Virus record (IMG/VR): IMGVR_UViG_3300021256_000009
Strand: one strand, 5' to 3'
DNA from: an uncultured virus (IMG/VR IMGVR_UViG_3300021256_000009)
Lineage: Duplodnaviria; Heunggongvirae; Uroviricota; Caudoviricetes
Length of the DNA: 64,000 bases
The notes under the pieces are model-generated. The model made no database searches. It had not been told where the DNA came from and saw nothing but the letters and a program-made list of their open reading frames with translations. Positions 1 to 56,579 of the stretch are shown here, in pieces. A program made the position numbers and the translations under genes. Position 1 is the stretch's first letter. Each line of letters starts with the position of its first letter.

Positions 1-1
1 C

Positions 2-226
2 TATGCCAGCGATGCACCGTCGGAGCGTCTCCCACAGACGCAGACCGGGATGGATAACTTCTACAAGATTCTGTCCTTCCACTCATGCAACGGAAATCAG
101 AGAGAGGTGTACGCATTCTACGGGGAAAATACTGCAACGGAAAGCCAGACAGTCCAATACCTTTTCACACTCTTCGAACTAAAGGCTTTCGGACTGAACT
201 GCGATAACGCATACATAACCGAATAG
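2..226 (+). CDS. 3' end of an upstream tail-region gene (partial)
   Basis: Open frame from window start (YASDAPSERL...AYITE*) ending TAG 3 nt before the next ATG. Confidence 0.7.
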   Translation, partial: YASDAPSERLPQTQTGMDNFYKILSFHSCNGNQREVYAFYGENTATESQTVQYLFTLFELKAFGLNCDNAYITE

Positions 227-1739: not shown

Positions 1740-2153
1740 ATGAAACTCAAACTCAAACTCATCGACCAGGTCGCCTGGATCCTCTCCGGGATTAAGATCA
1801 ACAGAATGGAAGACAAGGAGGCGAAGGCGGCACTCATGAAGGATTACCTGGCGCTCAGAAAAGCATGCAAGATTGCGCGGGAAGACAAGGAAGAAATCGT
1901 CAAAAAGTTCCAAGAGGACTGGAAGGACGAATTCGATGCCGTTAACAAGTGCCGGCGGTCGAACAAGCCTGTCGTTGGGCATGCCGACTATCTGGATGCC
2001 GAGAATGACGCTGAAAAGGCAATCTCGGATATCCTCTCAAGAGAGGTGGAGCTCGACATTGTGCCGGTCCCTTTTGACGCGTTTTCTGGCGCCTCGGATG
2101 AAATCACCCTGGAACAAATCGCCGTTCTGCAAGAAAGCGGGATTCTTAAATAA
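1740..2153 (+). CDS. Hypothetical helical protein
   Basis: ATG 1740 just after the previous stop; tight operon packing. Confidence 0.7.
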   Translation: MKLKLKLIDQVAWILSGIKINRMEDKEAKAALMKDYLALRKACKIAREDKEEIVKKFQEDWKDEFDAVNKCRRSNKPVVGHADYLDAENDAEKAISDILSREVELDIVPVPFDAFSGASDEITLEQIAVLQESGILK

Positions 2154-2161
2154 GAATAAAG

Positions 2162-2737
2162 ATGGCTGAAACAGACTACACCTCACGATTTTCAGGACCC
2201 GAGATAGACGCTAGACTTGCAAAGATCCCGACATTGGAATCTGAAGTGTCCGGAAAACAGGATGCGCTTCAGTCTGGCGTAAACATCAAAACGATCAACG
2301 GCCAACCCATCGTTGGCCCTGGAAATATTGATACTGGTGGCCAGATTACAGTTGATTCGGAATTATCCGAATCATCTACCAACCCGGTTCAGAACAAGGT
2401 AATCACTACCGCCCTTGCGGGGAAGCAAGCAACCCTTGTCGGTTCTGGAACGGGGCAGAACATCAAGACAATCAATAACGAGAGCATCCTCGGCCCGGGG
2501 AACATTAATGTCCAAGGCGGTCAAGACGGAGAGGACGGCGTCGGATTCGATGATGTCAGTACAAATCAGGACGGTACGATTGTGATTACCCTCACGAATG
2601 GAGACACGATTACGATCGATATAAACCACCAGCACCCGCAGTATCCAAAGTATGTGTATTGCTCATCCCAAGCCGCCTACGATGCAATCACTACGAAAGA
2701 GAGCGATACCTTGTACCTAATCCCTGAAACCTCGTAA
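2162..2737 (+). CDS. Tail/head fibre-like protein with NIKTIN repeats
   Basis: Two KQ..L.SG.NIKTIN...I.GPGNI repeats, DSELSESSTNPVQNKVI fibre repeat, C-terminal DTLYLI motif. Confidence 0.7.
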   Translation: MAETDYTSRFSGPEIDARLAKIPTLESEVSGKQDALQSGVNIKTINGQPIVGPGNIDTGGQITVDSELSESSTNPVQNKVITTALAGKQATLVGSGTGQNIKTINNESILGPGNINVQGGQDGEDGVGFDDVSTNQDGTIVITLTNGDTITIDINHQHPQYPKYVYCSSQAAYDAITTKESDTLYLIPETS

Positions 2738-2742
2738 AGACT

Positions 2743-3045
2743 ATGGAAGGAGCATTTATAGGAACAGAATTGAAATTCCGCATCGAAATCGAAGCGGGAG
2801 GTTTCTCTATGGTGGACGATGACTTCACCGTAACCATCAAGCGGGGGTCAAAACAGAAGGTGTTTGCGAAGGCAGACCTCGCACGGGACGGGGAAGATAA
2901 CTTCTATGTGTGCTTCGACTCTGCGGAGTTCGGTAGCGGGATGATTCAAGCGGTCGTTACCGCCTATGTCCCAGACACGGACTTCCCGGACGGATTGAGG
3001 ACGGAGGTGTACCTTATGGACTTGGTAAATGTAAGGAGAGTGTAA
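2743..3045 (+). CDS. Hypothetical beta-rich structural protein
   Basis: Operon packing within the fibre cluster. Confidence 0.7.
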   Translation: MEGAFIGTELKFRIEIEAGGFSMVDDDFTVTIKRGSKQKVFAKADLARDGEDNFYVCFDSAEFGSGMIQAVVTAYVPDTDFPDGLRTEVYLMDLVNVRRV

Positions 3046-3046
3046 G

Positions 3047-3346
3047 ATGGGTTGCTTGACCGTCACATACACGCGGCTCGGCGGTATCTCCGTTGGCGCG
3101 GAACGGGTGGGAGGAATATCCTGCTCGGCTACCCGCTTCGGGGGCGTGGACGCAACGGCACAAAGGGTCGGCGGTATTGACGCAAGCATGGAGAGAGTAG
3201 GAGGAATGACTTGTCGCTTCTCCCTTATCTGCTCCACGGGCATCGTCCCTCCGTACCTTGAAATCAATCCCGAAATCATCTGGGTTTACACTGATTGGTC
3301 GGCGCAGAACGAAGTCCTGTCCAACACAAGATGGAATGTTGATTAA
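3047..3346 (+). CDS. Repeat protein ending in the N-terminal half of a BACON-like domain
   Basis: Five 10-aa R-x-G-G repeats, then YLEINPEII...VLSNTRWNVD*. Confidence 0.7.
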   Translation: MGCLTVTYTRLGGISVGAERVGGISCSATRFGGVDATAQRVGGIDASMERVGGMTCRFSLICSTGIVPPYLEINPEIIWVYTDWSAQNEVLSNTRWNVD

Positions 3347-3366
3347 CTACTTAACAATAGAATACT

Positions 3367-3984
3367 ATGGCATACGCATCATGGGCAAACCCCAACAAAA
3401 CAAGTGGTAACGGTAATGATACCGTTTCGTGGTCCGCAACCGCCCACACCGGGCGAGAAGCGAGACAGACAACCGCGACCTTCGCCGCTTCCGGCGTTGA
3501 GAGCAAGACCCTTACTATCATCCAATCCGGCAAAACCGAGTTCGTGAGTTTCGATTCTGCAACCGCTTCCGTCGATAAGACCGGCGGAACCCTTACCATC
3601 ACGGGTAAATCCAACTCGTCCAAGCTGACCTTTGCGCTCACCGGGACGAATGGCATCGGCCTTACACTCCCCGCGAAGTACAAGGCAAACTCCGTCGATA
3701 CGAACAACGGAACGGCTATCACGGGCGACCCCGGCGCGGCACAGGAGTATGAGTTCTCCATCACCTTCACGGGTATTGACGAGAATACGACAATTGATCC
3801 CAAGGTATCGCAGTTGACGGTCACACCGAGCAGCGGCTCTTCCGCCGCGCAGACTTGCACCATCACTCAGGCCGCTGGCGACGCCTACCTCACCATCAGC
3901 CCGAACACCATCACGATTCCTGCGGCTGGTACTCCTGCACAGTCCGTCACCGTCACATCCAACACCAACTGGACTATCAGCTAA
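3367..3984 (+). CDS. BACON-like Ig-fold protein (half + full + half domain)
   Basis: W..P...SG.G...R...LTIIQ.G and YLTISP...VTSNTNWTIS motifs; very T/S-rich. Confidence 0.8.
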   Translation: MAYASWANPNKTSGNGNDTVSWSATAHTGREARQTTATFAASGVESKTLTIIQSGKTEFVSFDSATASVDKTGGTLTITGKSNSSKLTFALTGTNGIGLTLPAKYKANSVDTNNGTAITGDPGAAQEYEFSITFTGIDENTTIDPKVSQLTVTPSSGSSAAQTCTITQAAGDAYLTISPNTITIPAAGTPAQSVTVTSNTNWTIS

Positions 3985-4259
3985 TGACTACCCAGATAGG
4001 TTGGAACGACGGGACAGGAGAGAAGATATACCTCTCGTATTCGGCATCGGAGGGAAACCAAACGGTTACTATCACCTCCGATGCCCATACGGGGTATGTC
4101 GAGCGGACGAAGGACATTATCTTCTCCGCGACCGCAGGGAACACGACGATAAGCCGTACCCTCACCGTTGTCCAGCGAGGAAAGGACATCACCATCATCA
4201 CCCGCAACGACGTGGCTACGAAGGTCAATGAAGTCGCGGTTGGCTATGAACAACGATAA
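3984..4259 (+). CDS. Protein carrying the C-terminal half of a BACON-like domain
   Basis: TAATG overlap; GNQTVTITSDAHTG...R...LTVVQRG aligns with the N-terminus of 3367. Confidence 0.75.
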   Translation: MTTQIGWNDGTGEKIYLSYSASEGNQTVTITSDAHTGYVERTKDIIFSATAGNTTISRTLTVVQRGKDITIITRNDVATKVNEVAVGYEQR

Positions 4260-4262
4260 GAT

Positions 4263-4589
4263 ATGGCAGTAACATATAAGGACATAAACCAACTCACGCA
4301 GAAATCATCGGTTGCCGGGACGGAGAAAATCCCCGTCTCGGACACCGAGTTTCTTACGCCGGGGCAGATCGCTACCTACAAGCAAGTCCATTTGACTGAC
4401 GAGAGCGATATGCCAGCTTCGCCGGATGCTGATACTTTGTACTTGATTGATGATGACGGAATTGTTCCCGAGAACTCCAAGAACAAGGTAACGAGTTTAT
4501 CGGCATCTTCCACTCACACGCAATACCCTTCCGCGAAGTGTGTTTATGATTTGATTGGAAACGTCGAAACCCTTTTGGCCGCGTTGTGA
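4263..4589 (+). CDS. Fibre adaptor-like protein
   Basis: DADTLYLI motif, NKVTSLS...QYPSAKCVYD fibre repeat, C-terminal IGNVETLLAAL. Confidence 0.7.
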   Translation: MAVTYKDINQLTQKSSVAGTEKIPVSDTEFLTPGQIATYKQVHLTDESDMPASPDADTLYLIDDDGIVPENSKNKVTSLSASSTHTQYPSAKCVYDLIGNVETLLAAL

Positions 4590-4590
4590 T

Positions 4591-5358
4591 ATGAGCATAG
4601 CGAGTGAAATACAAAGGCTGCAAACAGACTCGGCCGCCATTGCATCTGCAATCTCTGCAAAAGGTGTAACTGTCCCGTCCGGCAGCGGATATGATGAATA
4701 TGCGTCGCTTATTGCAAGCATCCCGCAAGACGGAGGGGGCGGTTCTTCACTTCCATATACACCGCTCGAATATATCGAAACTGATGGTGAAGCATATATC
4801 AACTCCGGTGTTATCGCCAAAGAGCCGATGATATTCGATATGAAGGTAAAAATGAATGCGTCCTCTAATGGCGAAGTAGTCGTTGGAGTAGGTTATACTG
4901 ACGGTGCAAACACTACACTACATGGGTTATACCGTTCTTCTGGGCACTTGGATAAAATCGGATATGGATATTATTATATGTATTCGAGTATCCTTACACC
5001 GTCAAGTTTTAATAATCCGCTCCATATCAACACATGTTTACGAAACGGGAATTGTGTGATGGGGTATAAGGCGGATGGTGGCTCTTCTTTTATTTCTACC
5101 ACTAACAGTAGAACAAGGGCAGTAACGACAACTCTCCCTCTTTACATTTTCGCAACCAATGCCCAAGGTGTTGCTTCTGCCAAGTGTCCTTCTGGGACAA
5201 GAATTTATCACATGAAGATTTGTTGTGGTTCTTCGTTCCCGATGGTTGCCTTTGACGGCGTTCCTGCTTTGTATAATGGAGAATATGGATTGTGGGACAG
5301 AGTGAGTAATACATTCTTTGGAAACGCCGCCGATAGCGGGGCATTTACTGGCGCATGA
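4591..5358 (+). CDS. Putative receptor-binding/fibre tip protein, paralog 1
   Basis: N-terminal SIASEIQRL helix; LEYIETDG.AYIN and GLWDRVSNTFFGN motifs. Confidence 0.7.
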   Translation: MSIASEIQRLQTDSAAIASAISAKGVTVPSGSGYDEYASLIASIPQDGGGGSSLPYTPLEYIETDGEAYINSGVIAKEPMIFDMKVKMNASSNGEVVVGVGYTDGANTTLHGLYRSSGHLDKIGYGYYYMYSSILTPSSFNNPLHINTCLRNGNCVMGYKADGGSSFISTTNSRTRAVTTTLPLYIFATNAQGVASAKCPSGTRIYHMKICCGSSFPMVAFDGVPALYNGEYGLWDRVSNTFFGNAADSGAFTGA

Positions 5359-5369
5359 TTTATTGAAAT

Positions 5370-6104
5370 ATGATAAAGTTAGGAACAAATAACATCGGTA
5401 AAATTTACCTGGGCAGTAACCAGATCGGTAAAGCCTATTTGGGAAACAGTCTTGTGTATCAAAACGGACCAACTATCCCTGATGGCCCCGTCGAATACAT
5501 CGAGACGGACGGTGCTGCTTATATTAACACCGGAATTGTCGGCGAATGGCCGAAGTCCTGCGAAATGAAGGTGTTGATCGTAAACACGGACTTCGCTTGT
5601 TTCCTCGGCTCCAGGGTGGCCAATAACGGGATGCGTTTCCAACCCGTTATGAACATGAGCAATCGCGTCGACTTCGGTACGAGCAATTCGTATTACGCTG
5701 GCGTTGATATAACTGATTCCATTACAAACCGGACCCCGGTCCTTGTCCGCGCTTCGTTGAAAAAATCAACCGGTTCCTACATTTCCGCGAAGCAGGAGGG
5801 CGAGAGCGAATATACAAGCAAGAGCGGGACGGCTTACCCCGGCGGGTCCTCTCCGACAACCAACTTGAATATGTTCCTTTTTGCGCTGAACGACGGAGGT
5901 GTCGCAGCGGGATTTGAGCCGAACGGGACAAGACTCTATTATTGCAAGATTTACAGCGATGCCAATTTGACAACACTCATCTTTGACGGCGTTCCATGGC
6001 GTTACAATAAAAAGTACGGATTATGGGACAATGTGTCGAACTCATTCTTTGGCAACGCAAATAGTACCGGGGCTTTCTCCGGAGGACCTTCATTAACTCA
6101 ATAG
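5370..6104 (+). CDS. Putative receptor-binding/fibre tip protein, paralog 2
   Basis: N-terminal IKLG..IGKIYLG repeats; same EYIETDG and GLWD.VSN.FFGN motifs as 4591. Confidence 0.7.
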   Translation: MIKLGTNNIGKIYLGSNQIGKAYLGNSLVYQNGPTIPDGPVEYIETDGAAYINTGIVGEWPKSCEMKVLIVNTDFACFLGSRVANNGMRFQPVMNMSNRVDFGTSNSYYAGVDITDSITNRTPVLVRASLKKSTGSYISAKQEGESEYTSKSGTAYPGGSSPTTNLNMFLFALNDGGVAAGFEPNGTRLYYCKIYSDANLTTLIFDGVPWRYNKKYGLWDNVSNSFFGNANSTGAFSGGPSLTQ

Positions 6105-6109
6105 GATTC

Positions 6110-8374
6110 ATGGCAAACAAAACAGTATATCCTTACGGTACGGGAGGAAGCCTTCCGTCCAGTATCGGCCTGATTAACGACCTCAAGACAGGAGGTGTTG
6201 ACAAGGCGCTCGCCGCTGAGCAGGGCAAGGTTATCGGAGATATGCTATTCGGAGAAAAGAAATATCTGTCCGACAATATGTCACCCATGCCGGGATACGA
6301 CGGAAAGCAATTTAAGGCAAATTCCGCACAAATCGGGAAAGCGTTATCGTCCGTTCCGACTTATTCAGACGCGAATTGTCATAACTATCGCATACCAGTA
6401 GGCGGCGCATACAGCGTTACTTATAGGGTTTATACCTCCGGGTACGAGTACGGGTGTTTGTTCCTTGATAAAAACGATACTGTTGTAGGAGTCGTTTCAA
6501 TCCCCTCTGGGACTACGGAACCCATGAACACTATTAACGTACCCGATGAAGCAACATCCTTCATTTGGTCGTTCTATTCGTCATTAGAAGACCAAGGCGA
6601 GAGAGTATGCACGGTCTCGTTTGCCAAGCTGGATGAGATGGACGCCCGGATAACTGAACTTGAAGAAAAAGACGGTGATGTTGAATCGGCGAGTATCTTG
6701 TGTTCGGGAATATCACTCTCACTCAAAAACGGGAAACTTAATTCAAGCGGTACGCTGGTCTCTGGGGAATATCTTACCACGGAAACCATATTTGGCTCGT
6801 TCTTTATTAAATTCGCCGACGGGTGGAAGATGTACGAGGCACATCTTTATGACCGAAACGGAAACATGGTTTCCTACCAGCACATCCACCCGGATGTGTA
6901 CCACCAGACAGCGAGGGGAAACCGGGTATTCATGTCCACGGACAACATGGTTCCGGATTATGGCATGAGGATAACACTTTGCAAGTCGGACGGTAGCGCG
7001 ATTGAAGATGGGGCACAGCCAATTACTTGTTTCGTGCTTCTCTCCGACTCTGGCCTTCATCGTTGGATTCCGTCCGACCTTCCGAACTATGAGATTGCGC
7101 TTCGTAGGGTTAATTACATCGAACATTTGAGATGGACACCTCTTGCAAAAGTCCCTAACGGCTATCCAAGTACTGATTCAGCAACGGCTACAAATGTCGG
7201 TAATACATACTTCGACCTGGCTGGGCAGGTTGCTGTCGGCGTCCCTTATTCCGATGTCGCAGAAACGCGCACTTATGTTCCGAATAATGTATCGCTCCGC
7301 ACATTTATGACGGCGGTAAAAAATCGCCGGTCGCTACTTTATACGGAAGAACTGAACCAAAATGTCAGCAAATACGGCAAGACCTATACACGGGGGCATC
7401 GCCGTGCTTACTATGGCAATGTTTGTTGCGGGTTTATGGCTTGGGTGATGGGGATGGATACGATGTATCTTTCCGGTGACTTCGGCTCAAACAATATCCC
7501 AGGACTATCCACCGTTGCGTACAACAGCGTGGACGATCTGCGCCCTCTTGATTTTGTATGGCAAGACGGACATATCCAGATTATTTCCGACATCTGGAAG
7601 GATGAGTTCGGGAATGTGAAATACATCGGATGGGCGGAAATGTCCACGCCATATCCATATCGCGGACTGCTCACGCCTGAACTTTTCAACGAAAGACTGA
7701 CTGCTATTTCCGGGACCATCCACCGCTGGACCGGATGGGGAAACCTCACAGAGCCGGAGGATTCGGAGTATAGCCAGTATCTTCTCGGCCAGACAAGGAA
7801 AGAACCGGAATGGAGCGGAGATATCATGTGCTTCGCCGGGGATTACGCCGCCTTCGTGGAAGGGAACATCATCCACCTTAACGCAAGGCGTAACTCTGTC
7901 TATACGGGCGTGGAACTCTATAAGGACGATGTTTTGCTCCAGACGATAGACATCACCGGACTTACCGCAGACACCATCGTAACGCCTAATACCGAGGATT
8001 GGGTGGATGTCAACCTCACGCCCCTCAATCTCGCCTATGGTAAGTACAAGGCGAGGCTTACCAATGGCACTAATACCACCGATTACACCTACTTCGAGAT
8101 AATCGGGGTATCCATGTCGGCAACGAAGTCAGGGAACACTGTGACAGTTGCGTTCAGTTCGGCAAACGGAACCCCTGTATCCATCGAGCAGGTGAAAGAG
8201 AATGGATTCCCGAACTCTCCGAACAGCAAGATGCACGAGATTACTGCGGAGGAGGTCTCCGCCGGAACCATGACGCTGAACTGGGCCTACAATTCCACCT
8301 ACAAGTATCTGCTGATGCTTGTCAAGGGAGACTACGGAACGGTAGCGAAACGCATCTCGCATCCGTCTGCATAA
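6110..8374 (+). CDS. Large fibre/spike protein with possible NlpC/P60-like Cys-His domain
   Basis: INDLKTGG..KALAAEQGK fibre motif; YGNVCCGF...LRPLDFVWQDGHIQII. Confidence 0.6.
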   Translation: MANKTVYPYGTGGSLPSSIGLINDLKTGGVDKALAAEQGKVIGDMLFGEKKYLSDNMSPMPGYDGKQFKANSAQIGKALSSVPTYSDANCHNYRIPVGGAYSVTYRVYTSGYEYGCLFLDKNDTVVGVVSIPSGTTEPMNTINVPDEATSFIWSFYSSLEDQGERVCTVSFAKLDEMDARITELEEKDGDVESASILCSGISLSLKNGKLNSSGTLVSGEYLTTETIFGSFFIKFADGWKMYEAHLYDRNGNMVSYQHIHPDVYHQTARGNRVFMSTDNMVPDYGMRITLCKSDGSAIEDGAQPITCFVLLSDSGLHRWIPSDLPNYEIALRRVNYIEHLRWTPLAKVPNGYPSTDSATATNVGNTYFDLAGQVAVGVPYSDVAETRTYVPNNVSLRTFMTAVKNRRSLLYTEELNQNVSKYGKTYTRGHRRAYYGNVCCGFMAWVMGMDTMYLSGDFGSNNIPGLSTVAYNSVDDLRPLDFVWQDGHIQIISDIWKDEFGNVKYIGWAEMSTPYPYRGLLTPELFNERLTAISGTIHRWTGWGNLTEPEDSEYSQYLLGQTRKEPEWSGDIMCFAGDYAAFVEGNIIHLNARRNSVYTGVELYKDDVLLQTIDITGLTADTIVTPNTEDWVDVNLTPLNLAYGKYKARLTNGTNTTDYTYFEIIGVSMSATKSGNTVTVAFSSANGTPVSIEQVKENGFPNSPNSKMHEITAEEVSAGTMTLNWAYNSTYKYLLMLVKGDYGTVAKRISHPSA

Positions 8375-8974: not shown

Positions 8975-9552
8975 ACAAAGCCATGAAACAGCCTGACATT
9001 GGAGCGACAACAAACAATGTTGTAGAGGGCGGCGTAGTCGCCGTAACAGTTGCCGTATTACAAAAAACCGTACTCGCTATGATTCCTTTTGCGCTGCCCG
9101 CGCTGGTTCTGATAGCCTTGGACCTTTGGTTCGGGGTCAAGGCATCCCGCCACCGATACAAGAAATACAAACGTCCCGATGATAGGGTTACATTCTCAAA
9201 GGCGCTCCGGGGGACGACGGGGAAGGTGTTTGAGTTCGCCGCATGGCTCATTCTTGCCTCGTCTATGTCTATTGCTTTCGAGGAGGAATGGATTCAATGG
9301 GCCACCCTCGCCCTGGTTTATGTGAACGAGATCGGATCCATCATCGGAAACTACCTTTGCACGAAGGACATCGAGTTTTCCTTGCTCGGGTTCTTGAAGT
9401 CGGTGATTGTCTTCGTCGGGCGCTGGGTGGCTGCAAGGATTGGAATCATCGCGGACGATGTGACCTTCGATGGGGTGTTCAAGCCGATGCCGAAGGGTCA
9501 GCCGAGGAACGAGAAAGGACAGTTCACCACAAAGAAAAGGGGGAGAAAATGA
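8971..9552 (+). CDS. Holin (Phage_holin_4_1-like)
   Basis: Several TM segments, LIALDLWFGV and YVNEIGSIIGN motifs; directly upstream of the endolysin. Confidence 0.75.
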   Translation: MNKAMKQPDIGATTNNVVEGGVVAVTVAVLQKTVLAMIPFALPALVLIALDLWFGVKASRHRYKKYKRPDDRVTFSKALRGTTGKVFEFAAWLILASSMSIAFEEEWIQWATLALVYVNEIGSIIGNYLCTKDIEFSLLGFLKSVIVFVGRWVAARIGIIADDVTFDGVFKPMPKGQPRNEKGQFTTKKRGRK

Positions 9553-10139
9553 AGATTCTTATTGACAACGGACACGGAAAGGAAACTCCCGGGAAGCGAT
9601 CTCCGGACGGGACTCTCATGGAGTATAAGTGGTGCAGAGAGGTCGCACGGATGGTTTGTGACCAGTTCCAGGCCGAGGGGTACGATGCTTCTTTGCTTGT
9701 TCCTGAAGAAACGGACATTCCTCTCGCCGAACGGTGCAGGCGGGCAAACAAGTATCCGAAGCGAAGCACAATCCTCATAAGCATCCACAATAACGCTGCA
9801 GGAAGCGATGGTAAATGGAGGAATGCCCGTGGTTGGCGGATCTTTACCACTCGCGGAATTACAGAAGCGGACACCCTGGCGGAGTTTATCTGGGAAGAGG
9901 CAAAAAATACTTTCAAATCACCACTGACGGTCGGTTCGTATTCAAATCAGCGCCTCGGACACGATTGGGAGAATGACTTCTACATCATCAAGAAGTCATA
10001 TTGCCCCGCAGTGTTGATTGAAAACTTCTTCCAGGACAACAAGGATGATGTAGCGTATCTTTTAACCGACAAGGGAAAGGCTTCTTGTGCCGAGGTTATC
10101 GTCGATGGAGTGAAAGACTATCTTAATAGCATCAAGTGA
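9549..10139 (+). CDS. Endolysin, N-acetylmuramoyl-L-alanine amidase (Amidase_3)
   Basis: ILIDNGHG, E..W, ISIHNNA and PAVLIENFF Zn-amidase motifs; start at ATG 9549 (ATGA overlap). Confidence 0.92.
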   Translation: MKILIDNGHGKETPGKRSPDGTLMEYKWCREVARMVCDQFQAEGYDASLLVPEETDIPLAERCRRANKYPKRSTILISIHNNAAGSDGKWRNARGWRIFTTRGITEADTLAEFIWEEAKNTFKSPLTVGSYSNQRLGHDWENDFYIIKKSYCPAVLIENFFQDNKDDVAYLLTDKGKASCAEVIVDGVKDYLNSIK

Positions 10140-23374: not shown

Positions 23375-23539
23375 CTATTCTCCTTTCAAAAATTCAACGT
23401 TGTACTTCGGATAACGGACTAAACAATCCGTGTAGTAATCTCTTGCCTTCTTCTCGTCCACGAAGGTCTGGCTCGTGATATAACTCCCGCCAGAATACCT
23501 TCCGTATCCGGGACGGGTTATGGTGACGGTGTAGGTCAT
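23375..23539 (-). CDS. Small hypothetical protein
   Basis: ATGA overlap with the resolvase. Confidence 0.6.
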   Translation of the reverse strand: MTYTVTITRPGYGRYSGGSYITSQTFVDEKKARDYYTDCLVRYPKYNVEFLKGE

Positions 23540-24294
23540 ATCCCAATCTGAATTTCTTTCGCCCATCTGGAAAGTGTTCCCCAGCAGAGCGGTTTTCCGT
23601 TTCTTGTGCAGTAGATGGACGGGTGCTTTTCGTAAAGCCTGAGCGCCTTCGCAAGGATATCCTTTTGGCTAACTCCATGGGCGATCTCATCAGAGACCAT
23701 CGTATACAGAGCGGAGCCATCTCTCCATTCGCCGGCCTTCTTCATTGCGGCCATTCCTGATGCCCTGCCGGCTCCGGGAGCCTTCGTACCTTTCTTGCGG
23801 CCCAGGTGCGTACACCAGCGGTCAGTCTTGGAGAAGAATCCGCCTTCCTTCTTGATTGCCTCCTTGCGGGCGTCGATGGCGGACTGGGTTCTGGACTGAA
23901 TGAGCTCCTTTTCGAGCTGCGCTGCGAAGGAGAAACTGAATAGTAACATCTCGTCAATGGCCTTGATGTTCGCGCAGTCAAGATCAAGGTTGAGTTTAAT
24001 GCAGACGAGGCGGACCTTGCGCGGCTTGAGTTCCTGGGTGATGAGAAGGTTAAGGTCGCTCATAGATCTGCCTAAACGAGATATCTCAGACACGATAAGG
24101 ATGTCACCTGGGCCCATCTTCTGGACGAGCTTGTACAGGTTTCTGTCGCGGTAAGATACTCCGCCGGAGATTCCCTCATCCTTAACGAATTCGTCGATGA
24201 CGATGCCGCGAGGAAGGGCCCACTCCTTTATCGCCTGCTGCTGCTGGAGATCGTCTTGCTTACTTGTTGAGAATCTTATGTAGCTGTAAGTCAT
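23536..24294 (-). CDS. Serine recombinase (resolvase/invertase family)
   Basis: YIRFST.KQ (catalytic Ser), DEGISG, GDILIVSEISRLGRS, AQLEKELIQSRT. Confidence 0.92.
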   Translation of the reverse strand: MTYSYIRFSTSKQDDLQQQQAIKEWALPRGIVIDEFVKDEGISGGVSYRDRNLYKLVQKMGPGDILIVSEISRLGRSMSDLNLLITQELKPRKVRLVCIKLNLDLDCANIKAIDEMLLFSFSFAAQLEKELIQSRTQSAIDARKEAIKKEGGFFSKTDRWCTHLGRKKGTKAPGAGRASGMAAMKKAGEWRDGSALYTMVSDEIAHGVSQKDILAKALRLYEKHPSIYCTRNGKPLCWGTLSRWAKEIQIGI

Positions 24295-24430
24295 TGTATT
24301 AGTCTCGTCTGGCGAGCATGTCGTCAAGATATGCGGCCAACATAATCAGTAGAAACATATCCTTATCTTTTTTCGTTAAACGCCTCTGGAATGAAAGCCA
24401 GGGCGCAGAGAATGTAGACGATTACGAACA

Positions 24431-53132: not shown

Positions 53133-53168
53133 AGAGCGCCCCGATCTGGAGCGCTCTATTTTATTTAT
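53133..53168. terminator. Terminator between convergent SSB and portal genes
   Basis: AGAGCGC/GCGCTCT stem with T-rich tail. Confidence 0.6.
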
Positions 53169-54753
53169 TCCTCGGCTGATTCTCTGCCTGGTTCGTCACA
53201 TTCGGGACATTCGGATCGTTGGTCTGAGTCGTGGTCTTGTACTTTGCGTCCAGGGCCTTTTCCTCTTCCTTTTCCTTCATGATTTGCTCAGCGTCGCCAA
53301 GATGGCTGTTCCCGATGTCGGACATCGTCGCCTTGCGGGATTTAACACCGGCATAATACTGATCGAGCTCCATCTTGATTCTTTCTGATTCGTTCTGCGG
53401 GATCCAAATATTTTGTCCGCAGGAAATCTTGAGGTCGCCATAGGTCATGATATTACCCTCGGCCTTGCCGACCAGGCGCTTGAATACCTCGACAAGCTGC
53501 CGGACCGGTTTCGCATAGAACTTCCACCTATTCTTGCACCACTGGATGTCCGGCGCAAACATGATTTTGATGGTTGTGCTACTATCTGCTCCCTGGCGAA
53601 TGTCGACCGGCTCGACCAGAGCGGATAGCGATCCGCGAAGGATGTTGTTCCAAAGCGTGTTCAGATTCAGTGTCGCGATATTGGACGCATCCGGCGGCGC
53701 CAGGTACTTGCCGTCTGCATGAGCCAGCGAGTCCGCAGTTCCTCTTACGCCGATGGTTTTTCCGTTAATCTTGGACGGCGGGAGCGTAGTGATCTTTTCG
53801 CTCTTGAGGAAAAGGATCGGGAATGCGCTCGTCTTTACCTCCTCGGACACATAGGAGAGTGCCTTCTCGAATTTTTCGATGCTACCCTGGACCGGTCCGG
53901 TTGCGATGTCAGGCACACGGAAATAAACTACCTGCAGGATGTCATTCCCAATCTGCGCCTCCTTTCTGGAAAGCATCTTGTAACCATCTTCAGACACCTC
54001 GTTTAAGCTGGTATTATTCTTAATAATTCGGAGCACCTTGTCAATCCAGGCTTTCCCCTTCTCTTCTTCGGTGTCTACTTTTACCCAGGTCTCGCGATAT
54101 TTCACCGTGAATACATCGACAGCCGGCTTCCCGTTGAGAGTGTATGACCTGTATAAGGTTGGCTTTCCATCGTCATCTACACCAGGATATAGTGTGTCTC
54201 CTTTCTCGTAAGAAAAGACCTCGTAGTTGATCGTATTCCCGTCGTACCACCAATACAGGGCGGAATCTCCTGTCCGTTCGCAATACCCTACGGCCTCACA
54301 CCAAGCGTCCCAGAATCCGGCATAGTCCATCCAAGACTCCACCTTCTGAAACGCTTCCTCATTCTCTTTCGATTCACTGGCAATCCAAAAGTTATCTCCA
54401 GTCAAATGAGCCACCTTCTTGGAAACAATCATTTCCTGGATGGCCAGAGCGACAGTTTCGACCTCGTCATACCCGTCGAGGACCCACTTCTTTTTCCCGG
54501 TCTTCGGATCGGTTTCGTCGGTTTGCTTGTAAATCGGCCTCTGGCTCATGTACTTCGAGCTAATCTTGTGGGCCTCTGGGTAAAGCTCGTTAAGGAAGTT
54601 ATCCTGGGTAAGGTTTACATACCCAACTCCAAATCCTGCAGTTCTCGGAATTCTGTATCCAGAATTCCCTCCCAACGGCGGATACATGCCGGCGCTATCT
54701 GGTGTGACCCTCCGCACCCAATAGTCTTTCTTTAAATGTTCACTGATGTTCAT
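53161..54753 (-). CDS. Portal protein
   Basis: 530 aa downstream of terL; SPP1-like features (KYL.P, IKIMF, PQNE.E). Confidence 0.75.
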   Translation of the reverse strand: MNISEHLKKDYWVRRVTPDSAGMYPPLGGNSGYRIPRTAGFGVGYVNLTQDNFLNELYPEAHKISSKYMSQRPIYKQTDETDPKTGKKKWVLDGYDEVETVALAIQEMIVSKKVAHLTGDNFWIASESKENEEAFQKVESWMDYAGFWDAWCEAVGYCERTGDSALYWWYDGNTINYEVFSYEKGDTLYPGVDDDGKPTLYRSYTLNGKPAVDVFTVKYRETWVKVDTEEEKGKAWIDKVLRIIKNNTSLNEVSEDGYKMLSRKEAQIGNDILQVVYFRVPDIATGPVQGSIEKFEKALSYVSEEVKTSAFPILFLKSEKITTLPPSKINGKTIGVRGTADSLAHADGKYLAPPDASNIATLNLNTLWNNILRGSLSALVEPVDIRQGADSSTTIKIMFAPDIQWCKNRWKFYAKPVRQLVEVFKRLVGKAEGNIMTYGDLKISCGQNIWIPQNESERIKMELDQYYAGVKSRKATMSDIGNSHLGDAEQIMKEKEEEKALDAKYKTTTQTNDPNVPNVTNQAENQPRNK

Positions 54754-54780: not shown

Positions 54781-56526
54781 CTATATATATATAACGGCGC
54801 GTCCGTCGTTATAATCTTCATAAAGTCCGTCATACGCATCGTCCTCGATCTCCGGAGACGGCTGCTTCTTGGGACGGGCGTCTAACTCCCATAATGAGCG
54901 GAGGCATATCGTATCCCACAAGTCCGGGGAATTCTTTTGGTGCCGAGCTTTGTATTCGTCTTTTGAAAGATAGTAGATACGCTTGTTTTTTGTGGTTGTG
55001 ACAAATAAGTCGATGCCGTCAAAAAGAATATCGCGGAGACTTCGAAGTTCTCCATTCTTTCCGTAAGGAATTTTATCGCTCAAATCCATGCTTGTGCTTA
55101 TCTGTCCGGTCTCAATCAAGACGGCCATTTTCCCCATAAGCTGGCTGCGAAGGTTGAAATATTGTTCAAAAGTAACGGGGTTTCCGTTCTCGTCATATTC
55201 CTGCATGGCGGTCTTGTTGGCCGTTACCGGGTTTGCGTTAATGTAGTCCTTGAGGAAGAAACCCATTCCGGTGGCATCAAACGCAAAATTCTTCAGTGGA
55301 ACGCCATATTTTGTTAGAGTCCCCTCAATCCATGGGACGATAGCCTTCATGTCTCCCACATATGTTTCAATAGCGAACCATCGCAGTCCCTTCCATATTA
55401 CCATCTGACAAGCATCTGGTTTTTTAGACGAAGCCGATCCAGATATATCCATCGTGGCATACATATTCTCGTCATCGTTGATGGGATTGCTTGTGAAGTT
55501 GAGAATCATTTGCTTCGTGATGGAAGATCGCTCGTTCTCTACCGGGCCGAAGTATGCTCCCTTTAGCACATTTCGCTGCGTCTTACCTACCGCATGAAGG
55601 TTGGCCACAGATCCACCACCAGTCGCAGCGACAAGTTTTCTATTGTCAGCGGCTTCACCGGTAAACATTGTAAAACTTTTTACCATGTCGGCTTCGGTCA
55701 ATCCTGCTGCCCGGTCTGCGTCAGAAAGTTTGATGCCGGCAGCTTTTGCGACCTCTTCTGGCGTATCTCCTACAATTACATCATTGACATCATCCCCAGC
55801 AAAGTACATGTACTTTGTTACTCCATTCATGTCCGGATAGATGTAATATGTGTCGGGATTGATATAGCCGGCAAGTAGGAGTAGAGCTGTTGTCCAATGC
55901 GTAAACTCCGGGTTAAATGACATCGCTATCTGCGGTTTCATACCGGATGAGTCTCTGTTTCGCGACATCCAATAAGTAAACATCTTGAATGTCATCGCAG
56001 TTCCTTCGTCGATCTGAATAAGGCTTGCCTGGTTTTTTTTTGCGAGTTCCTTGAAGTCTTCCCACTCCGTTGGGTTGTCCACATTAAAGTTGCTGTGGAT
56101 AAGCTGGACTGCAGAGTTGTATTTTGGCCACGCGAATGTCGGAGAGTCGCTAGAGTTAACCTCGCAGTCGGCAAAATTACCAAGCAACTCCATCGCATCC
56201 CTGTAAATAGATGTTCCCTTCTTTGAATCCGCGAGCCTCATAGAAATAAAACGGCCAGCAAATCCAGGCTTGTCCATTCCGTAAAGGAACTTCATAAGCA
56301 TTGCATACGTCTTGCCCATGGTTGCGGCACCGCAAAGAAAGATGATATTGCTATCGCACTGAAGAAAATTTTCTTGCAATCCTGGCTGTGGGATGAAGTC
56401 TACCTTCTCGCGTAAAGTGAAGTCGCCGACTTTATCCCAACCTTTGTCCTTTGCGGTCGGGAGTTTTCTTTCCACATGTTTGTACAGCGGAGGAAAGTTT
56501 GCGTCTTTGTTTACGAGTCGAAACAT
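54781..56526 (-). CDS. terL: Terminase large subunit
   Basis: PQPGLQ..F, GAATMGKT Walker A, IQIDEG Walker B, SFNP, ATMDIS, FDATG.G and SPD.WD nuclease motifs. Confidence 0.88.
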   Translation of the reverse strand: MFRLVNKDANFPPLYKHVERKLPTAKDKGWDKVGDFTLREKVDFIPQPGLQENFLQCDSNIIFLCGAATMGKTYAMLMKFLYGMDKPGFAGRFISMRLADSKKGTSIYRDAMELLGNFADCEVNSSDSPTFAWPKYNSAVQLIHSNFNVDNPTEWEDFKELAKKNQASLIQIDEGTAMTFKMFTYWMSRNRDSSGMKPQIAMSFNPEFTHWTTALLLLAGYINPDTYYIYPDMNGVTKYMYFAGDDVNDVIVGDTPEEVAKAAGIKLSDADRAAGLTEADMVKSFTMFTGEAADNRKLVAATGGGSVANLHAVGKTQRNVLKGAYFGPVENERSSITKQMILNFTSNPINDDENMYATMDISGSASSKKPDACQMVIWKGLRWFAIETYVGDMKAIVPWIEGTLTKYGVPLKNFAFDATGMGFFLKDYINANPVTANKTAMQEYDENGNPVTFEQYFNLRSQLMGKMAVLIETGQISTSMDLSDKIPYGKNGELRSLRDILFDGIDLFVTTTKNKRIYYLSKDEYKARHQKNSPDLWDTICLRSLWELDARPKKQPSPEIEDDAYDGLYEDYNDGRAVIYI

Positions 56527-56532
56527 ACATCG

Positions 56533-56575
56533 CAAAGATACGAAAAAGGGACGATTATTAGCAAATTCCATGCCC
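56533..56575 (-). promoter_or_regulatory. terL promoter region: sigma54-type motif plus -7 element
   Basis: GGGCATG-GAAT-TTGCT (56560-56575) and TATCTTTG (56533-56540) on - strand. Confidence 0.55.
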
Positions 56576-56579
56576 AACT

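What the first reader, a model, noticed from the sequence alone, without database searches (positions are those of the whole stretch)
3047..4259. Three genes split mid-BACON domain: candidate self-polymerising fibre (initiator / monomer / cap)
Seen: gene A (3047) ends YLEINPEII...VLSNTRWNVD* and gene B (3367) ends YLTISPNTI...VTSNTNWTIS*. Both stop right after the SN.W strand that closes the first half of a BACON-like Ig fold. Gene B starts W.NP.KTSGNGNDTV...AHTG...R...F...LTIIQSG and gene C (3984) carries GNQTV...AHTG...R...F...LTVVQRG, the second half. The three ORFs are in different frames, so they are separate chains. Inference: half-domains complement in trans. A has only the donor half (base), B has acceptor, full domain and donor (so B could chain head-to-tail), and C has only the acceptor half (cap). 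This resembles donor-strand complementation in pili, but built from phage BACON domains, and could give a virion fibre of variable length for mucus or glycan adhesion.
Basis: partly seen in the sequence, partly recalled or inferred. Interest (0 to 1): 0.85.

Follow-up and report, generated by a model that had tools for sequence, protein, structure and literature searches.

The report
Phage fibre genes split mid-BACON domain
Three neighbouring tail-fibre genes of a gut phage each stop or start in the middle of the same small sugar-binding-type fold, so the separate proteins probably snap together end to end by rebuilding that fold between them, a way of joining phage fibre parts that I did not find described.

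Summary
Gene A (3047..3346) ends, gene B (3367..3984) starts and ends, and gene C (3984..4259) starts inside a BACON Ig-like domain, always in the same surface loop (after strand C, 4-6 residues before the conserved Trp of strand C'). The split is not an assembly error or recoding. The same A-B-C triad occurs in 22 of 29 related viral contigs and 8 of 19 genome contigs, with varying frame offsets and all three stop codons. There are 2565 database relatives of B, and the best 120 are 205-206 aa. Distant relatives carry A-B, B-B and B-C as single chains, and there the junction is a complete BACON domain (Pfam BACON_2 2-92/94; AlphaFold model matches the BoGH5A BACON domain at Z 13.5). AlphaFold models of B alone and of a natural B-B tandem leave the terminal halves unpaired, so they argue against a closed, circularly permuted B. 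Best reading: A, B and C form a non-covalent chain in gene order, joined by two trans-complemented split BACON domains, with interchangeable base and tip modules. Whether B also self-polymerises is open. I found no description of this in the searched literature.

The parts
2743..3045 (+). 100-aa Ig-like protein directly upstream of A. Conserved neighbour of the module and a candidate anchor on the virion.
   Evidence: No Pfam or PHROG hit. A homologous gene precedes A in L001, L003, L004 and L028. In L005, L006 and L027 the same domain forms the C-terminus of a protein whose N-terminus (MKWLTL..IKQQLRIE) I read from memory as a gp6-like head-tail connector; that reading was not tested.
3047..3346 (+). 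Gene A, the 'initiator' (99 aa). The N-terminal part carries about five ~11-aa R(V/I)GG(I/M) repeats. The C-terminus is the first half of a BACON fold.
   Evidence: Alignment A2 of 16 homologues has invariant P75, W79 and W96.
3251..3343 (+). A-type donor half (strands A, A', B, C of a BACON fold), running to the last residue of A.
   Evidence: Donor HMM hit on residues 69-98, E 7e-12. This is a sequence class distinct from B's donor half.
3347..3366 (.). 20-nt A-B spacer, with a stop in B's frame at 3358-3360.
   Evidence: Spacer length in relatives ranges from 1 to 51 nt, and the A-to-B frame offset is 0, 1 or 2.
3367..3537 (+). B acceptor half (strands C', E, F, G of a BACON fold), B residues 1-57.
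   Evidence: Pfam BACON 9-60/61 and BACON_2 47-93/94. Acceptor HMM E 4e-23. Aligns to the BoGH5A BACON domain, 3zmr_A sequence positions 42-92, E 0.003.
3538..3879 (+). B middle domain, residues 58-171: a complete nine-strand Ig-like sandwich.
   Evidence: AF2 pLDDT is 90 or above in every 10-residue block here. VIA-align matches model 58..171 to the BoGH5A BACON domain 3zmr_B 42..129 at Z 8.5, rmsd 2.5, 87 aligned; this is tied with CEP192 and Calx-beta folds at Z 8-9, so only a generic Ig-like fold is secure.
3880..3981 (+). B donor half, residues 172-205 (strands A to C), ending at B's last residue.
   Evidence: Donor HMM E 5e-12. S198, N199 and W202 are invariant in 19 homologues.
3984..4190 (+). 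C acceptor half, residues 1-69. C-type, with an extra strand-like insert (EKIYLSYS). The start codon overlaps B's stop (TAATG).
   Evidence: Pfam BACON 12-60/61, E 8e-6, 26.2 bits against a cut-off of 25. Acceptor HMM E 5e-27.
4191..4259 (+). C tail, residues 70-91 (KDITIITRNDVATKVNEVAVGYEQR) plus the stop codon. In relatives this point continues into larger distal domains.
   Evidence: P0271 and P0272 (271 aa; 77% and 68% identical to C) continue after ...VAVGY into about 180 further residues. P0273 fuses the acceptor half to the EYI.T..AYID.G domain.

Best explanation
A, B and C are three separately translated structural proteins of a tail-fibre gene cluster in a phage that probably infects Bacteroidales. 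They probably assemble in gene order into one non-covalent chain.

Each junction is a BACON Ig-like domain split in its C-C' surface loop. The upstream protein supplies strands A, A', B and C from its extreme C-terminus. The downstream protein supplies strands C', E, F and G from its extreme N-terminus. The two halves would interdigitate (B pairs with E; C inserts between C' and F) to rebuild one beta-sandwich.

A would be the base, attached through its N-terminal repeat region. B would add one complete Ig-like domain between two reconstituted BACON domains. C would close the chain and, in relatives, carries variable distal domains. The split halves thus act as standard plug-and-socket connectors that let base, extender and tip modules be exchanged between phages.

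Shown: the half-domain anatomy, its conservation, the fused forms, and the fold of the fused junction.

Inferred: that the halves pair in trans, the order A-B-C, a stoichiometry of one B per chain, and any glycan-binding role.
For: 1. Half-domain anatomy.

2. Conservation of the split. All 28 full-length B homologues in the IMG/VR loci start with the acceptor half, and 27 end within one residue after SN..W... The full triad is present in 22 of 29 IMG/VR loci and 8 of 19 genome-contig loci. B has 2565 relatives at E<=1e-5, and the best 120 are 205 or 206 aa. Among the best 150 of 962 representatives clustered at 50% identity, 102 are 190-235 aa, and 78 of those end just after the motif.

3. Not recoding. 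In 30 triads the A-to-B frame offset is 0 (15), 2 (10) or 1 (5). A's stop is TAA 24, TGA 4, TAG 2. In the window a second stop blocks any single frameshift.

4. Rosetta-stone fusions.
- P0112 and P0134 fuse a donor half directly to a B-type acceptor (...NKNWRVE-MARAPWLSIDP...).
- P0069 and P0120 fuse B to a C-type acceptor.
- P0002, P0035 and P0076 are B-B tandems, with the junction matching Pfam BACON_2 positions 2-92 or 2-93 of 94 at 30-40 bits (cut-off 25).
- The AF2 model of P0002 gives a junction domain (173-261) that matches the BoGH5A BACON domain at Z 13.5, rmsd 1.7, 86 aligned. This is the top hit of 48,161 chains.

5. B is not self-closed in the models. In the contiguous junction domain of P0002, strands A', B (8 residues), C (7) and E (7) are all present. 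At the free ends of P0002 and in the window's B, A' and C are absent and B and E are only 3-4 residues long. The B model aligns to elongated tandem Ig arrays over 1..205.

6. Proteins of 685 aa (P0105) and 845 aa (P0104) also start with an acceptor half and end with a donor half. Self-closure is implausible at that length.

7. Modularity. Acceptor-start proteins range from 78 to 425 aa and donor-end proteins from 49 to 345 aa. Acceptor halves are fused to different distal domains.

8. Context. The module sits among tail genes, upstream of the endolysin, and a neighbour carries the Phage_tail_C motif.
Against: I inferred that the B model is 'open' from DSSP strings and alignment ranges, not from coordinates. 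Its terminal halves still have pLDDT 88-94, which is unusual for unpaired half-sandwiches.

B's own two halves are of the canonical BACON type. The class HMMs labelled 84 of 91 internal junctions in long BACON-repeat proteins as B-donor:B-acceptor. B-B pairing, in cis or in trans, is therefore sterically plausible and could compete with A and C.

A crude DCA on 121 B-family sequences shows more coupling between the N-half and C-half than between other regions (odds ratio 2.4, p 0.011 in the top 100). This hints at B-donor/B-acceptor contact.

Some genomes lack an adjacent A (L002) or C (L028), or have B alone (L025).
Confidence: 0.55

Rival explanations
1. Self-polymerising fibre. B's donor half also complements the acceptor half of another B. 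The chains are then A-(B)n-C with variable n, with A as nucleator and C as cap.
For: B's two halves are both of the canonical BACON type, and they occur joined in natural B-B tandems and in a four-unit protein (P0002, P0035, P0076, P0015). Some B homologues have no A- or C-type neighbour, so their only visible partner is another B (L025; csAssE-Sib locus L031). N-half/C-half covariation in the B family is enriched over other inter-region pairs (odds ratio 2.4-2.5). The AF2 model leaves both ends open.
Against: A's donor and C's acceptor are conserved sequence classes clearly different from B's (self scores 62-112 bits, cross scores 9-21 bits; these self scores include the training sequences). 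That suggests two dedicated junction types rather than one promiscuous type. Where more units are wanted, phages encode them covalently or as a second gene (P0002; L051). B's stop overlaps C's start, which is what one expects for roughly equimolar synthesis, not for an excess of B. csAssE-Sib does encode further acceptor-start and donor-end proteins elsewhere in its genome. The DCA signal is weak (Meff 110), and many of the coupled positions lie in indel-rich loops.
Confidence: 0.2
2. Circular permutation. B closes on itself, with its C-terminal half pairing with its own N-terminal half beside the middle domain. A's donor half then pairs with C's acceptor half, or with nothing.
For: B carries both halves, and they are of compatible (canonical) type. 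The linkers of 5-6 residues at both ends of the middle domain would allow side-by-side packing (my geometric reasoning, not computed). The monomer model has pLDDT 93.9 and pTM 0.77. N-half/C-half covariation is present.
Against: In the DSSP of the B model, the strands that would pair across the halves are missing or only 3-4 residues long, unlike the contiguous junction domain in P0002. The model aligns over residues 1..205 to three tandem Ig domains (183 aligned, rmsd 9.8) and over 1..172 to tandem cadherin and Calx arrays. Proteins of 411-845 aa keep the same two sticky ends. The fused forms found join a donor directly to B's acceptor (P0112, P0134) or join B's donor directly to a C-type acceptor (P0069, P0120). 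No A-donor:C-acceptor junction appeared among the 91 internal junctions classified.
Confidence: 0.1
3. The half-domains do not pair with each other. They dock onto other virion proteins by edge-strand addition, or they are tolerated remnants of a fragmented multi-BACON gene.
For: No direct evidence of pairing exists. L002 lacks an A-type gene and L028 lacks a C-type gene. A's N-terminal repeats and C's tail are additional candidate contact elements.
Against: The halves are the best conserved parts of B: invariant G14, G16, V20, T28, G29, R30, R33, Q53, S198, N199, W202. The break falls in the same loop at both junctions and in all lineages. In the window donors and acceptors are balanced two to two. 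Remnants would not persist in 2565 relatives with fixed length.
Confidence: 0.1
4. The three ORFs are translated as one protein by frameshifting, read-through or an alternative genetic code.
For: In 8 of 30 triads A and B are in the same frame with only A's stop between them. Some gut phages are known to recode stop codons; this is recalled, not tested here.
Against: In the window the frames differ at both junctions, all three stops are TAA, and a second stop in B's frame lies downstream of A's stop. Offsets and spacer lengths vary between relatives and all three stop codons are used. An ATG sits at the start of every acceptor half.
Confidence: 0.02

Closest known systems
BACON domain (Pfam PF13004 / PF19190 'viral BACON'), as in BoGH5A (PDB 3ZMR) and the crAssphage tandem-BACON protein (de Jonge et al. 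2019, PMC6949934; I saw the search listing and passages found by term search)
   Same: Same fold and sequence motifs. In fused relatives the junction domain matches BACON_2 over 2-92/94 and matches the 3ZMR BACON domain at Z 13.5. It occurs in phages that probably infect Bacteroidales and next to tail genes.
   Different: Here no single chain holds a whole copy of the domain that Pfam recognises. Gene boundaries cut it in the C-C' loop. That paper holds none of the terms 'split', 'truncated' or 'frameshift', and its uses of 'partial' and 'half' do not concern the domain.
Donor-strand complementation/exchange in chaperone-usher pili (recalled knowledge; CfaB/CfaE fusion structures appear among the fold matches)
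   Same: An incomplete Ig-like fold in one subunit is completed by strands from the next. This gives head-to-tail non-covalent chains with base, shaft and tip subunits.
   Different: Pilins lack one strand, which is supplied by an N-terminal extension, and they need a chaperone and an usher. Here about half the domain (four strands) is donated from the C-terminus, with no chaperone or usher recognised (the family scans covered only part of the window's ORFs). Assembly would be cytoplasmic.
Type V pili of Bacteroidia (FimA/Mfa1), polymerised by protease-triggered strand exchange (search listing only; mechanism recalled)
   Same: The likely host phylum makes these pili. The polarity is the same, with C-terminal strands of one subunit filling the next subunit.
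   Different: Type V pilins are exported lipoprotein precursors that need cleavage of an N-terminal strand. A, B and C start directly with the domain, and I read no signal peptide in them (not tested with a predictor). The fold is also different.
Modular docking of phage tail fibres and tailspikes through conserved N-terminal adaptor domains (recalled; in PhicrAss001 the fibre protein gp22 docks by residues 1-26, PMC10172136, passages seen)
   Same: A conserved N-terminal docking element is followed by variable distal domains, and gene order follows assembly order.
   Different: Known adaptors are whole folded domains or short peptides that bind a partner surface. Here the docking element is half of a fold that exists only once both partners are present.

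Membership tests
BACON domain (PF13004/PF19190) | Match to the profile over its whole length within one chain | tested here: not met
   B residues 8-55 cover only BACON_2 positions 47-93/94. C residues 17-64 cover BACON 12-60/61. A has no hit. The whole-length match appears only in fused relatives: P0002 174-258, P0035 182-269 and P0076 177-265, each matching positions 2-92 or 2-93 of 94 at 30-40 bits.
BACON domain (PF13004/PF19190) | Ig-like beta-sandwich fold as in BoGH5A (3ZMR) | tested here: met
   For the donor+acceptor junction of the natural tandem P0002: Z 13.5, rmsd 1.7, 86 aligned, top of 48,161 chains. For the window's own halves this holds by homology only. B's middle domain reaches Z 8.5, tied with other Ig-like folds.
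BACON domain (PF13004/PF19190) | Carbohydrate or mucin binding | not testable with these tools
Passages of PMC13370021 describe BACON-containing phage proteins displayed on phage K1F to test adherence. I did not read the outcome in full, and those proteins were not compared with A, B or C.
Chaperone-usher donor-strand complementation | A subunit lacking one C-terminal strand, an N-terminal donor extension, and a dedicated chaperone and usher | tested here: not met
   The sequences show a four-strand C-terminal donor and a four-strand N-terminal acceptor. The ORFs scanned returned no chaperone or usher family. The scans covered 40 ORFs, not every ORF in the window.
Type V pilus strand exchange | Lipoprotein precursor with a cleavable N-terminal strand, and a C-terminal donor | tested here: inconclusive
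   The C-terminal donor polarity is shared. A, B and C begin directly with the domain (MAYASW..., MTTQIGW...), and I saw no lipobox or leader by eye. No signal-peptide predictor was run.
Circularly permuted, self-closed two-domain protein | N- and C-terminal segments of one chain pair to form one domain | tested here: inconclusive
   DSSP of the B model lacks the cross-half strands that the contiguous control shows, and the alignment ranges indicate an elongated shape.
Split-domain hetero-complex (trans-complemented fold) | The two halves on different chains form one domain in a complex | not tested
Support is indirect, from fused relatives and conserved adjacency.

The most novel reading that the evidence does not exclude
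Gut phages that probably infect Bacteroidales carry a general, chaperone-free split-BACON connector system. Proteins ending in a four-strand donor half and proteins starting with a four-strand acceptor half assemble head to tail in the cytoplasm into beads-on-a-string fibres. B-type extenders have two canonical sticky ends and can also add to one another. Fibre length and tip identity would then be set by competition between extender and terminator modules, some of them encoded far from the main cluster. This would be a phage counterpart of pilus donor-strand exchange, built from half-domains.
Probability: 0.25. Interest if true: 0.85.

Novelty: new variant of a known kind. Interest (0 to 1): 0.72.

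Why it matters
If the halves pair in trans, this is a simple and widespread rule for how gut phages join small fibre proteins and swap their tips. B alone has 2565 relatives, found in crAss-like and other phages. The rule would have three practical uses:
- Fibre composition could be read from sequence: donor end, acceptor start, or both.
- It would explain why many short 'hypothetical' or oddly annotated genes ('lipocalin-like', 'GH5') cluster near tail genes.
- It would offer a natural, orthogonal pair of split-domain connectors (A-type with B-type, B-type with C-type) for attaching new tips to phage fibres or for protein engineering.

It would also be a rare, well-populated natural case of a small beta-sandwich domain split between genes, with both fused and split forms available for comparison.

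Tried and rejected
- **Complex prediction (B + C, full length, alignments A1 and A3).** The tool answered that it is not available. Inter-chain pairing is therefore untested.
- **DNA similarity search of window 2000-6200 against the phage collection.** No match.
- **The search of earlier findings by sequence.** Nothing to show.
- **The genome search 'own'.** No genome is held for this window.
- **The search for related loci with the C alignment.** I used a single-protein search for longer C relatives instead.
- **Mean-field DCA on 121 B-family sequences (Meff 110).** It was too noisy to decide between contact and no contact of B's two halves. N-C pairs were 4 of the top 30 against 2.9 expected from all pairs, and enriched only relative to other inter-region pairs.
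- **Foldseek of the B model against the PDB.** It returned only generic tandem-Ig matches (TM 0.41 or less, rmsd 8-10), which did not settle the shape.
- **PDB sequence search with C.** It gave only weak retinol-binding-protein hits (E about 0.01), which I regard as chance.
- **Tandem Repeats Finder on 2900-4400.** No DNA repeat lies under A's peptide repeats.
- **Literature.** Five searches and term look-ups in three papers found no description of a BACON or Ig-like domain split between phage genes. The library lacks most subscription journals, and I opened no supplements.
- **Recoding or frameshift reading.** Considered and rejected.
Full report
**What is in the sequence.** Three ORFs lie head to tail on the + strand. 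A is 3047..3346 (99 aa). B is 3367..3984 (205 aa). C starts at ATG 3984, which overlaps B's stop as TAATG, and runs to 4259 (91 aa). They are in three different frames and all end in TAA.

A ends ...YLEINPEIIWVYTDWSAQNEVLSNTRWNVD. B begins MAYASWANPNKTSGNGNDTV...LTIIQSG and ends ...YLTISPNTITIPAAGTPAQSVTVTSNTNWTIS. C begins MTTQIGWNDGTGEKIYLSYSASEGNQTVTITSDAHTG...LTVVQRG.

Pfam sees only the second half of a BACON domain at the N-termini of B and C. B residues 4-53 match BACON 9-60/61, and B 8-55 match BACON_2 47-93/94. C residues 17-64 match BACON 12-60/61, above the cut-off. Pfam finds nothing in A.

I built HMMs of the two halves and scanned all six-frame ORFs of the 64 kb window. They hit only A and B as donor ends and only B and C as acceptor starts. 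The phage window therefore holds two donors and two acceptors and no contiguous copy of this domain.

B's start cannot lie further upstream, because a stop sits at 3358-3360 in its frame. A's stop lies before that stop, so one frameshift cannot join A and B.

**The split is real and old.**
- A scan of IMG/VR gave 29 loci with B relatives (49-89% identity). Of these, 28 encode a full-length B that starts with the acceptor half, and 27 of them end within a residue of SN..W.. One (L025) adds a short basic tail, and L029 holds only a 101-aa C-terminal fragment.
- The complete triad is a donor-end gene immediately upstream, B, and an acceptor-start gene immediately downstream. It is present in 22 of the 29 loci.
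- The other seven IMG/VR loci are as follows. L008 is cut by the contig end. L002 has B plus a 359-aa acceptor-start protein and no A. L028 has A and B and no C. L024 has B only by HMM. L026 has B plus a 746-aa protein with both sticky ends. L025 is solitary. L029 is the fragment.
- In one-per-species genome contigs, 19 loci were found, mostly in Bacteroidales, Prevotella, Alistipes and related MAGs. Eight show the clear triad, others are partial or cut, and three are long cellular proteins with contiguous BACON repeats.
- In 30 triads the A-to-B frame offset is 0 in 15, 2 in 10 and 1 in 5. Spacers run from 1 to 51 nt, and TAA, TAG and TGA are all used. Frameshifting, read-through and stop-codon reassignment do not explain the pattern.
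- B has 2565 relatives at E<=1e-5 among proteins of 112-359 aa, and the best 120 are 205 aa (one is 206) at 86-100% identity.
- In a library clustered at 50% identity there are 962 hits at E<=0.001. Of the best 150, 102 are 190-235 aa. A regular expression finds the motif within three residues of the end in 78 of those 102. The other 24 mostly carry two to four extra residues or a short basic tail.

**Fused relatives show what the halves are**.
- P0002 (411 aa), P0035 and P0076 are B-B tandems, and P0015 (807 aa) has four B-like units.
- P0069 (486 aa) and P0120 (306 aa) join B to a C-type acceptor.
- P0112 (1195 aa) and P0134 (1057 aa) join a donor half directly to a B-type acceptor. P0112 even keeps the residues M-A at the seam (...NKNWRVE-MARAPWLSIDP...).
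- In the tandems the junction matches Pfam's viral BACON model over positions 2-92 or 2-93 of 94, at 30-40 bits against a cut-off of 25.
- I folded P0002 with a seven-sequence alignment (pLDDT 88.6). Its junction domain (173-261) is the best match of 48,161 PDB chains to the BACON domain of BoGH5A (3zmr_B 42-130, Z 13.5, rmsd 1.7, 86 aligned).
- In that contiguous domain DSSP gives strands A 174-177, A' 180-183, B 189-196, C 199-205, C' 210-213, E 220-226, F 235-244 and G 250-257.
- Mapping the window's proteins onto this, each break falls in the C-C' loop. The upstream chain ends with strand C. The downstream chain starts four to six residues before the conserved Trp of C'. Each side contributes four strands.

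**Is B simply a closed circular permutant?** AF2 on B with 19 homologues gives pLDDT 93.9 and pTM 0.77. I had no coordinates, so I used two indirect readings.
- First, DSSP. In B's model the intra-half hairpin F-G is full length (33-41, 44-53). The strands that would pair across the halves are short or missing: E is 22-24, B is 195-198, and there is no A' and no C. This is the same pattern as at the free ends of P0002 (E 19-22, B 401-404, no A', no C) and unlike P0002's contiguous junction.
- Second, alignment ranges. The model aligns over 1..205 to three tandem Ig domains (183 aligned, rmsd 9.8) and over 1..172 to tandem cadherin, Dscam and Calx arrays. A side-by-side closed form should not do this.
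- Both readings point to an open, elongated half-domain/domain/half-domain shape.
- Proteins of 685 aa (P0105) and 845 aa (P0104) also begin with an acceptor half and end with a donor half. Self-closure is unlikely at that length.
- This argues against the permutation rival but does not exclude it. pLDDT of the halves is high, and a crude DCA shows more N-half/C-half coupling than other inter-region coupling (odds ratio 2.4, p 0.011, top 100 pairs; Meff 110).

**Two junction types.**
- A-type and B-type donors, and B-type and C-type acceptors, form separate sequence classes. Class HMM self scores have medians of 62-112 bits and cross scores 9-21 bits. The self scores include the training sequences.
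- B's halves are the canonical ones. The class HMMs label 84 of 91 internal junctions of long BACON-repeat proteins as B-donor:B-acceptor, six as B-donor:C-acceptor and one as A-donor:B-acceptor.
- A's donor and C's acceptor are therefore specialised partners for canonical halves. This fits a defined A-B-C chain.
- Against an open-ended polymer, phages that want more units encode them, either as tandems (P0002) or as two adjacent B-like genes (L051). B and C are also translationally overlapped.
- For the polymer, some B genes have no A- or C-type neighbour (L025, and csAssE-Sib at 5 kb). However, csAssE-Sib has a second extender followed by an acceptor-start ORF at 49 kb. The complete contig behind L026 encodes a 360-aa acceptor-start protein 44 kb from its B. 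Partners therefore need not be adjacent.

**Modularity and context.**
- Acceptor-start proteins range from 78 to 425 aa and donor-end proteins from 49 to 345 aa.
- Close relatives of C continue into about 180 further residues (P0271 and P0272, 77% and 68% identity). Another relative, P0273, fuses the acceptor half to the EYI.T..AYID.G domain, which the window encodes in separate genes at 4591..5358 and 5370..6104.
- The window is a phage: terminase 54781..56577(-), portal 53161..54753(-), tape measure from 62291 to the window's end, and endolysin 9243..10139.
- A-B-C lies 5-6 kb upstream of the endolysin. It sits beside a 191-aa protein with the Phage_tail_C tip motif. Its other neighbours are small proteins that I read as fibre-like by eye, with no family match. 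I read this as a tail-fibre cluster following the tape-measure gene across the record's ends. That layout is inferred.
- A 100-aa Ig-like protein (2743..3045) always precedes A. In another clade (L005, L006, L027) it forms the C-terminus of what looks like a gp6-type head-tail connector. I recognised that connector from its motif, not by a test. The module may sit at the neck in those phages.

**Mechanism proposed, and what it rests on.**
- Shown: half-domain anatomy, separate translation, deep conservation of the split site, natural fused forms, the BACON fold of the fused junction, and the tail-gene context.
- Inferred: A's C-terminal four strands and B's N-terminal four strands rebuild one BACON sandwich, B's C-terminus and C's N-terminus rebuild a second, and the result is a chain of three Ig-like beads with A's repeat region as the base and C's tail as the end.

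**Comparison with what is known.**
- The domain is BACON, but no chain here contains a whole copy that Pfam recognises.
- The principle resembles donor-strand complementation in chaperone-usher pili and strand exchange in Bacteroidia type V pili. The differences are that half a domain rather than one or two strands is donated, the donor is C-terminal, no chaperone, usher or protease step is evident, and assembly would be cytoplasmic.
- It also resembles the N-terminal adaptor logic of phage fibres and tailspikes, except that the adaptor is an incomplete fold.
- Five literature searches and term look-ups in three papers found no description of a BACON or Ig-like domain split between phage genes. 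The library omits most subscription journals, and no supplements were opened.
- Public annotations of B homologues as 'lipocalin-like protein' (cr111_1, cr127_1) and 'glycosyl hydrolase family 5' (csAssE-Sib) appear to be transfers from weak similarity to the BoGH5A BACON domain.

**Verdict.** Trans-complementation is the most economical explanation but remains an inference. Self-polymerisation of B is possible but unproven. I rate this a new variant of a known kind (strand or half-domain complementation applied to phage fibre assembly), of high interest and directly testable.

Noticed in passing
window 2743..3045 (+); L005 3079..3717, L006 3062..3706: A 100-aa Ig-like protein (...YVPDTDFPDGLRTEV...) always lies directly upstream of A. 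In another clade the same domain is fused to the C-terminus of a protein starting MKWLTL..IKQQLRIE, which looks like a gp6-type head-tail connector (recognised by eye). In those phages the A-B-C module may attach at the neck rather than the tail tip.
   Followed up: partly
window 3047..3250 (+): The N-terminal two thirds of A consist of about five copies of an ~11-residue repeat, R(V/I)GG(I/M)xxxxxx, with several Cys. There is no Pfam or PHROG hit and no DNA tandem repeat. Its fold and binding partner are unknown.
   Followed up: partly
window 2162..2737 (+) and 4263..4589 (+): The 191-aa protein ends with the Pfam Phage_tail_C 'tail tip' motif (...ESDTLYLIPETS, E 3e-7) and has NIKTIN..I.GPGNI repeats. 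The 108-aa protein after C carries a similar DADTLYLIDDDG motif in its middle. This may be a second type of short connector motif in the same cluster.
   Followed up: no
window 4591..5358 (+) and 5370..6104 (+): These are two paralogous proteins sharing a (L/V)EYIETDG.AYIN.G domain but with different N-termini (MSIASEIQRLQTDSAAIASAISAKGV... versus MIKLGTNNIGKIYLGSNQIGKAYLG...). In P0273 and P0069 this domain is fused directly behind a C-type acceptor half.
   Followed up: partly
window 23536..24327 (-): A serine recombinase / DNA invertase-like gene (phrog_125, E 7e-30; also an integrase family). I did not examine whether it mediates integration or inversion of a fibre segment.
   Followed up: no
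L031 (OR575929.1, csAssE-Sib) 3968..4624; L030 (MT774387.1, cr111_1) 1744..2373: Public records annotate B homologues as 'glycosyl hydrolase family 5 protein (xyloglucanase)' and 'lipocalin-like protein'. The only basis visible here is similarity of the acceptor half to the BACON domain of BoGH5A, so both names look like annotation carry-over.
   Followed up: partly
L025 3968..4618; L031 3968..4624; proteins P0042, P0056, P0064: A subset of B homologues without A/C neighbours carries a 10-18 residue basic, probably amphipathic tail after the donor half (for example ...NWTISQIVSRMFSLRK). This may be a different way of anchoring or capping.
   Followed up: no
L052 313..1092 and 1079..(open); L053 177..1259; L026 6062..8302: Other phage genomes hold further sticky-ended modules away from the main B gene. 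csAssE-Sib has a 259-aa extender followed by an acceptor-start ORF. One complete 106-kb contig has a 360-aa acceptor-start protein 44 kb from B and a 746-aa protein with both ends.
   Followed up: partly
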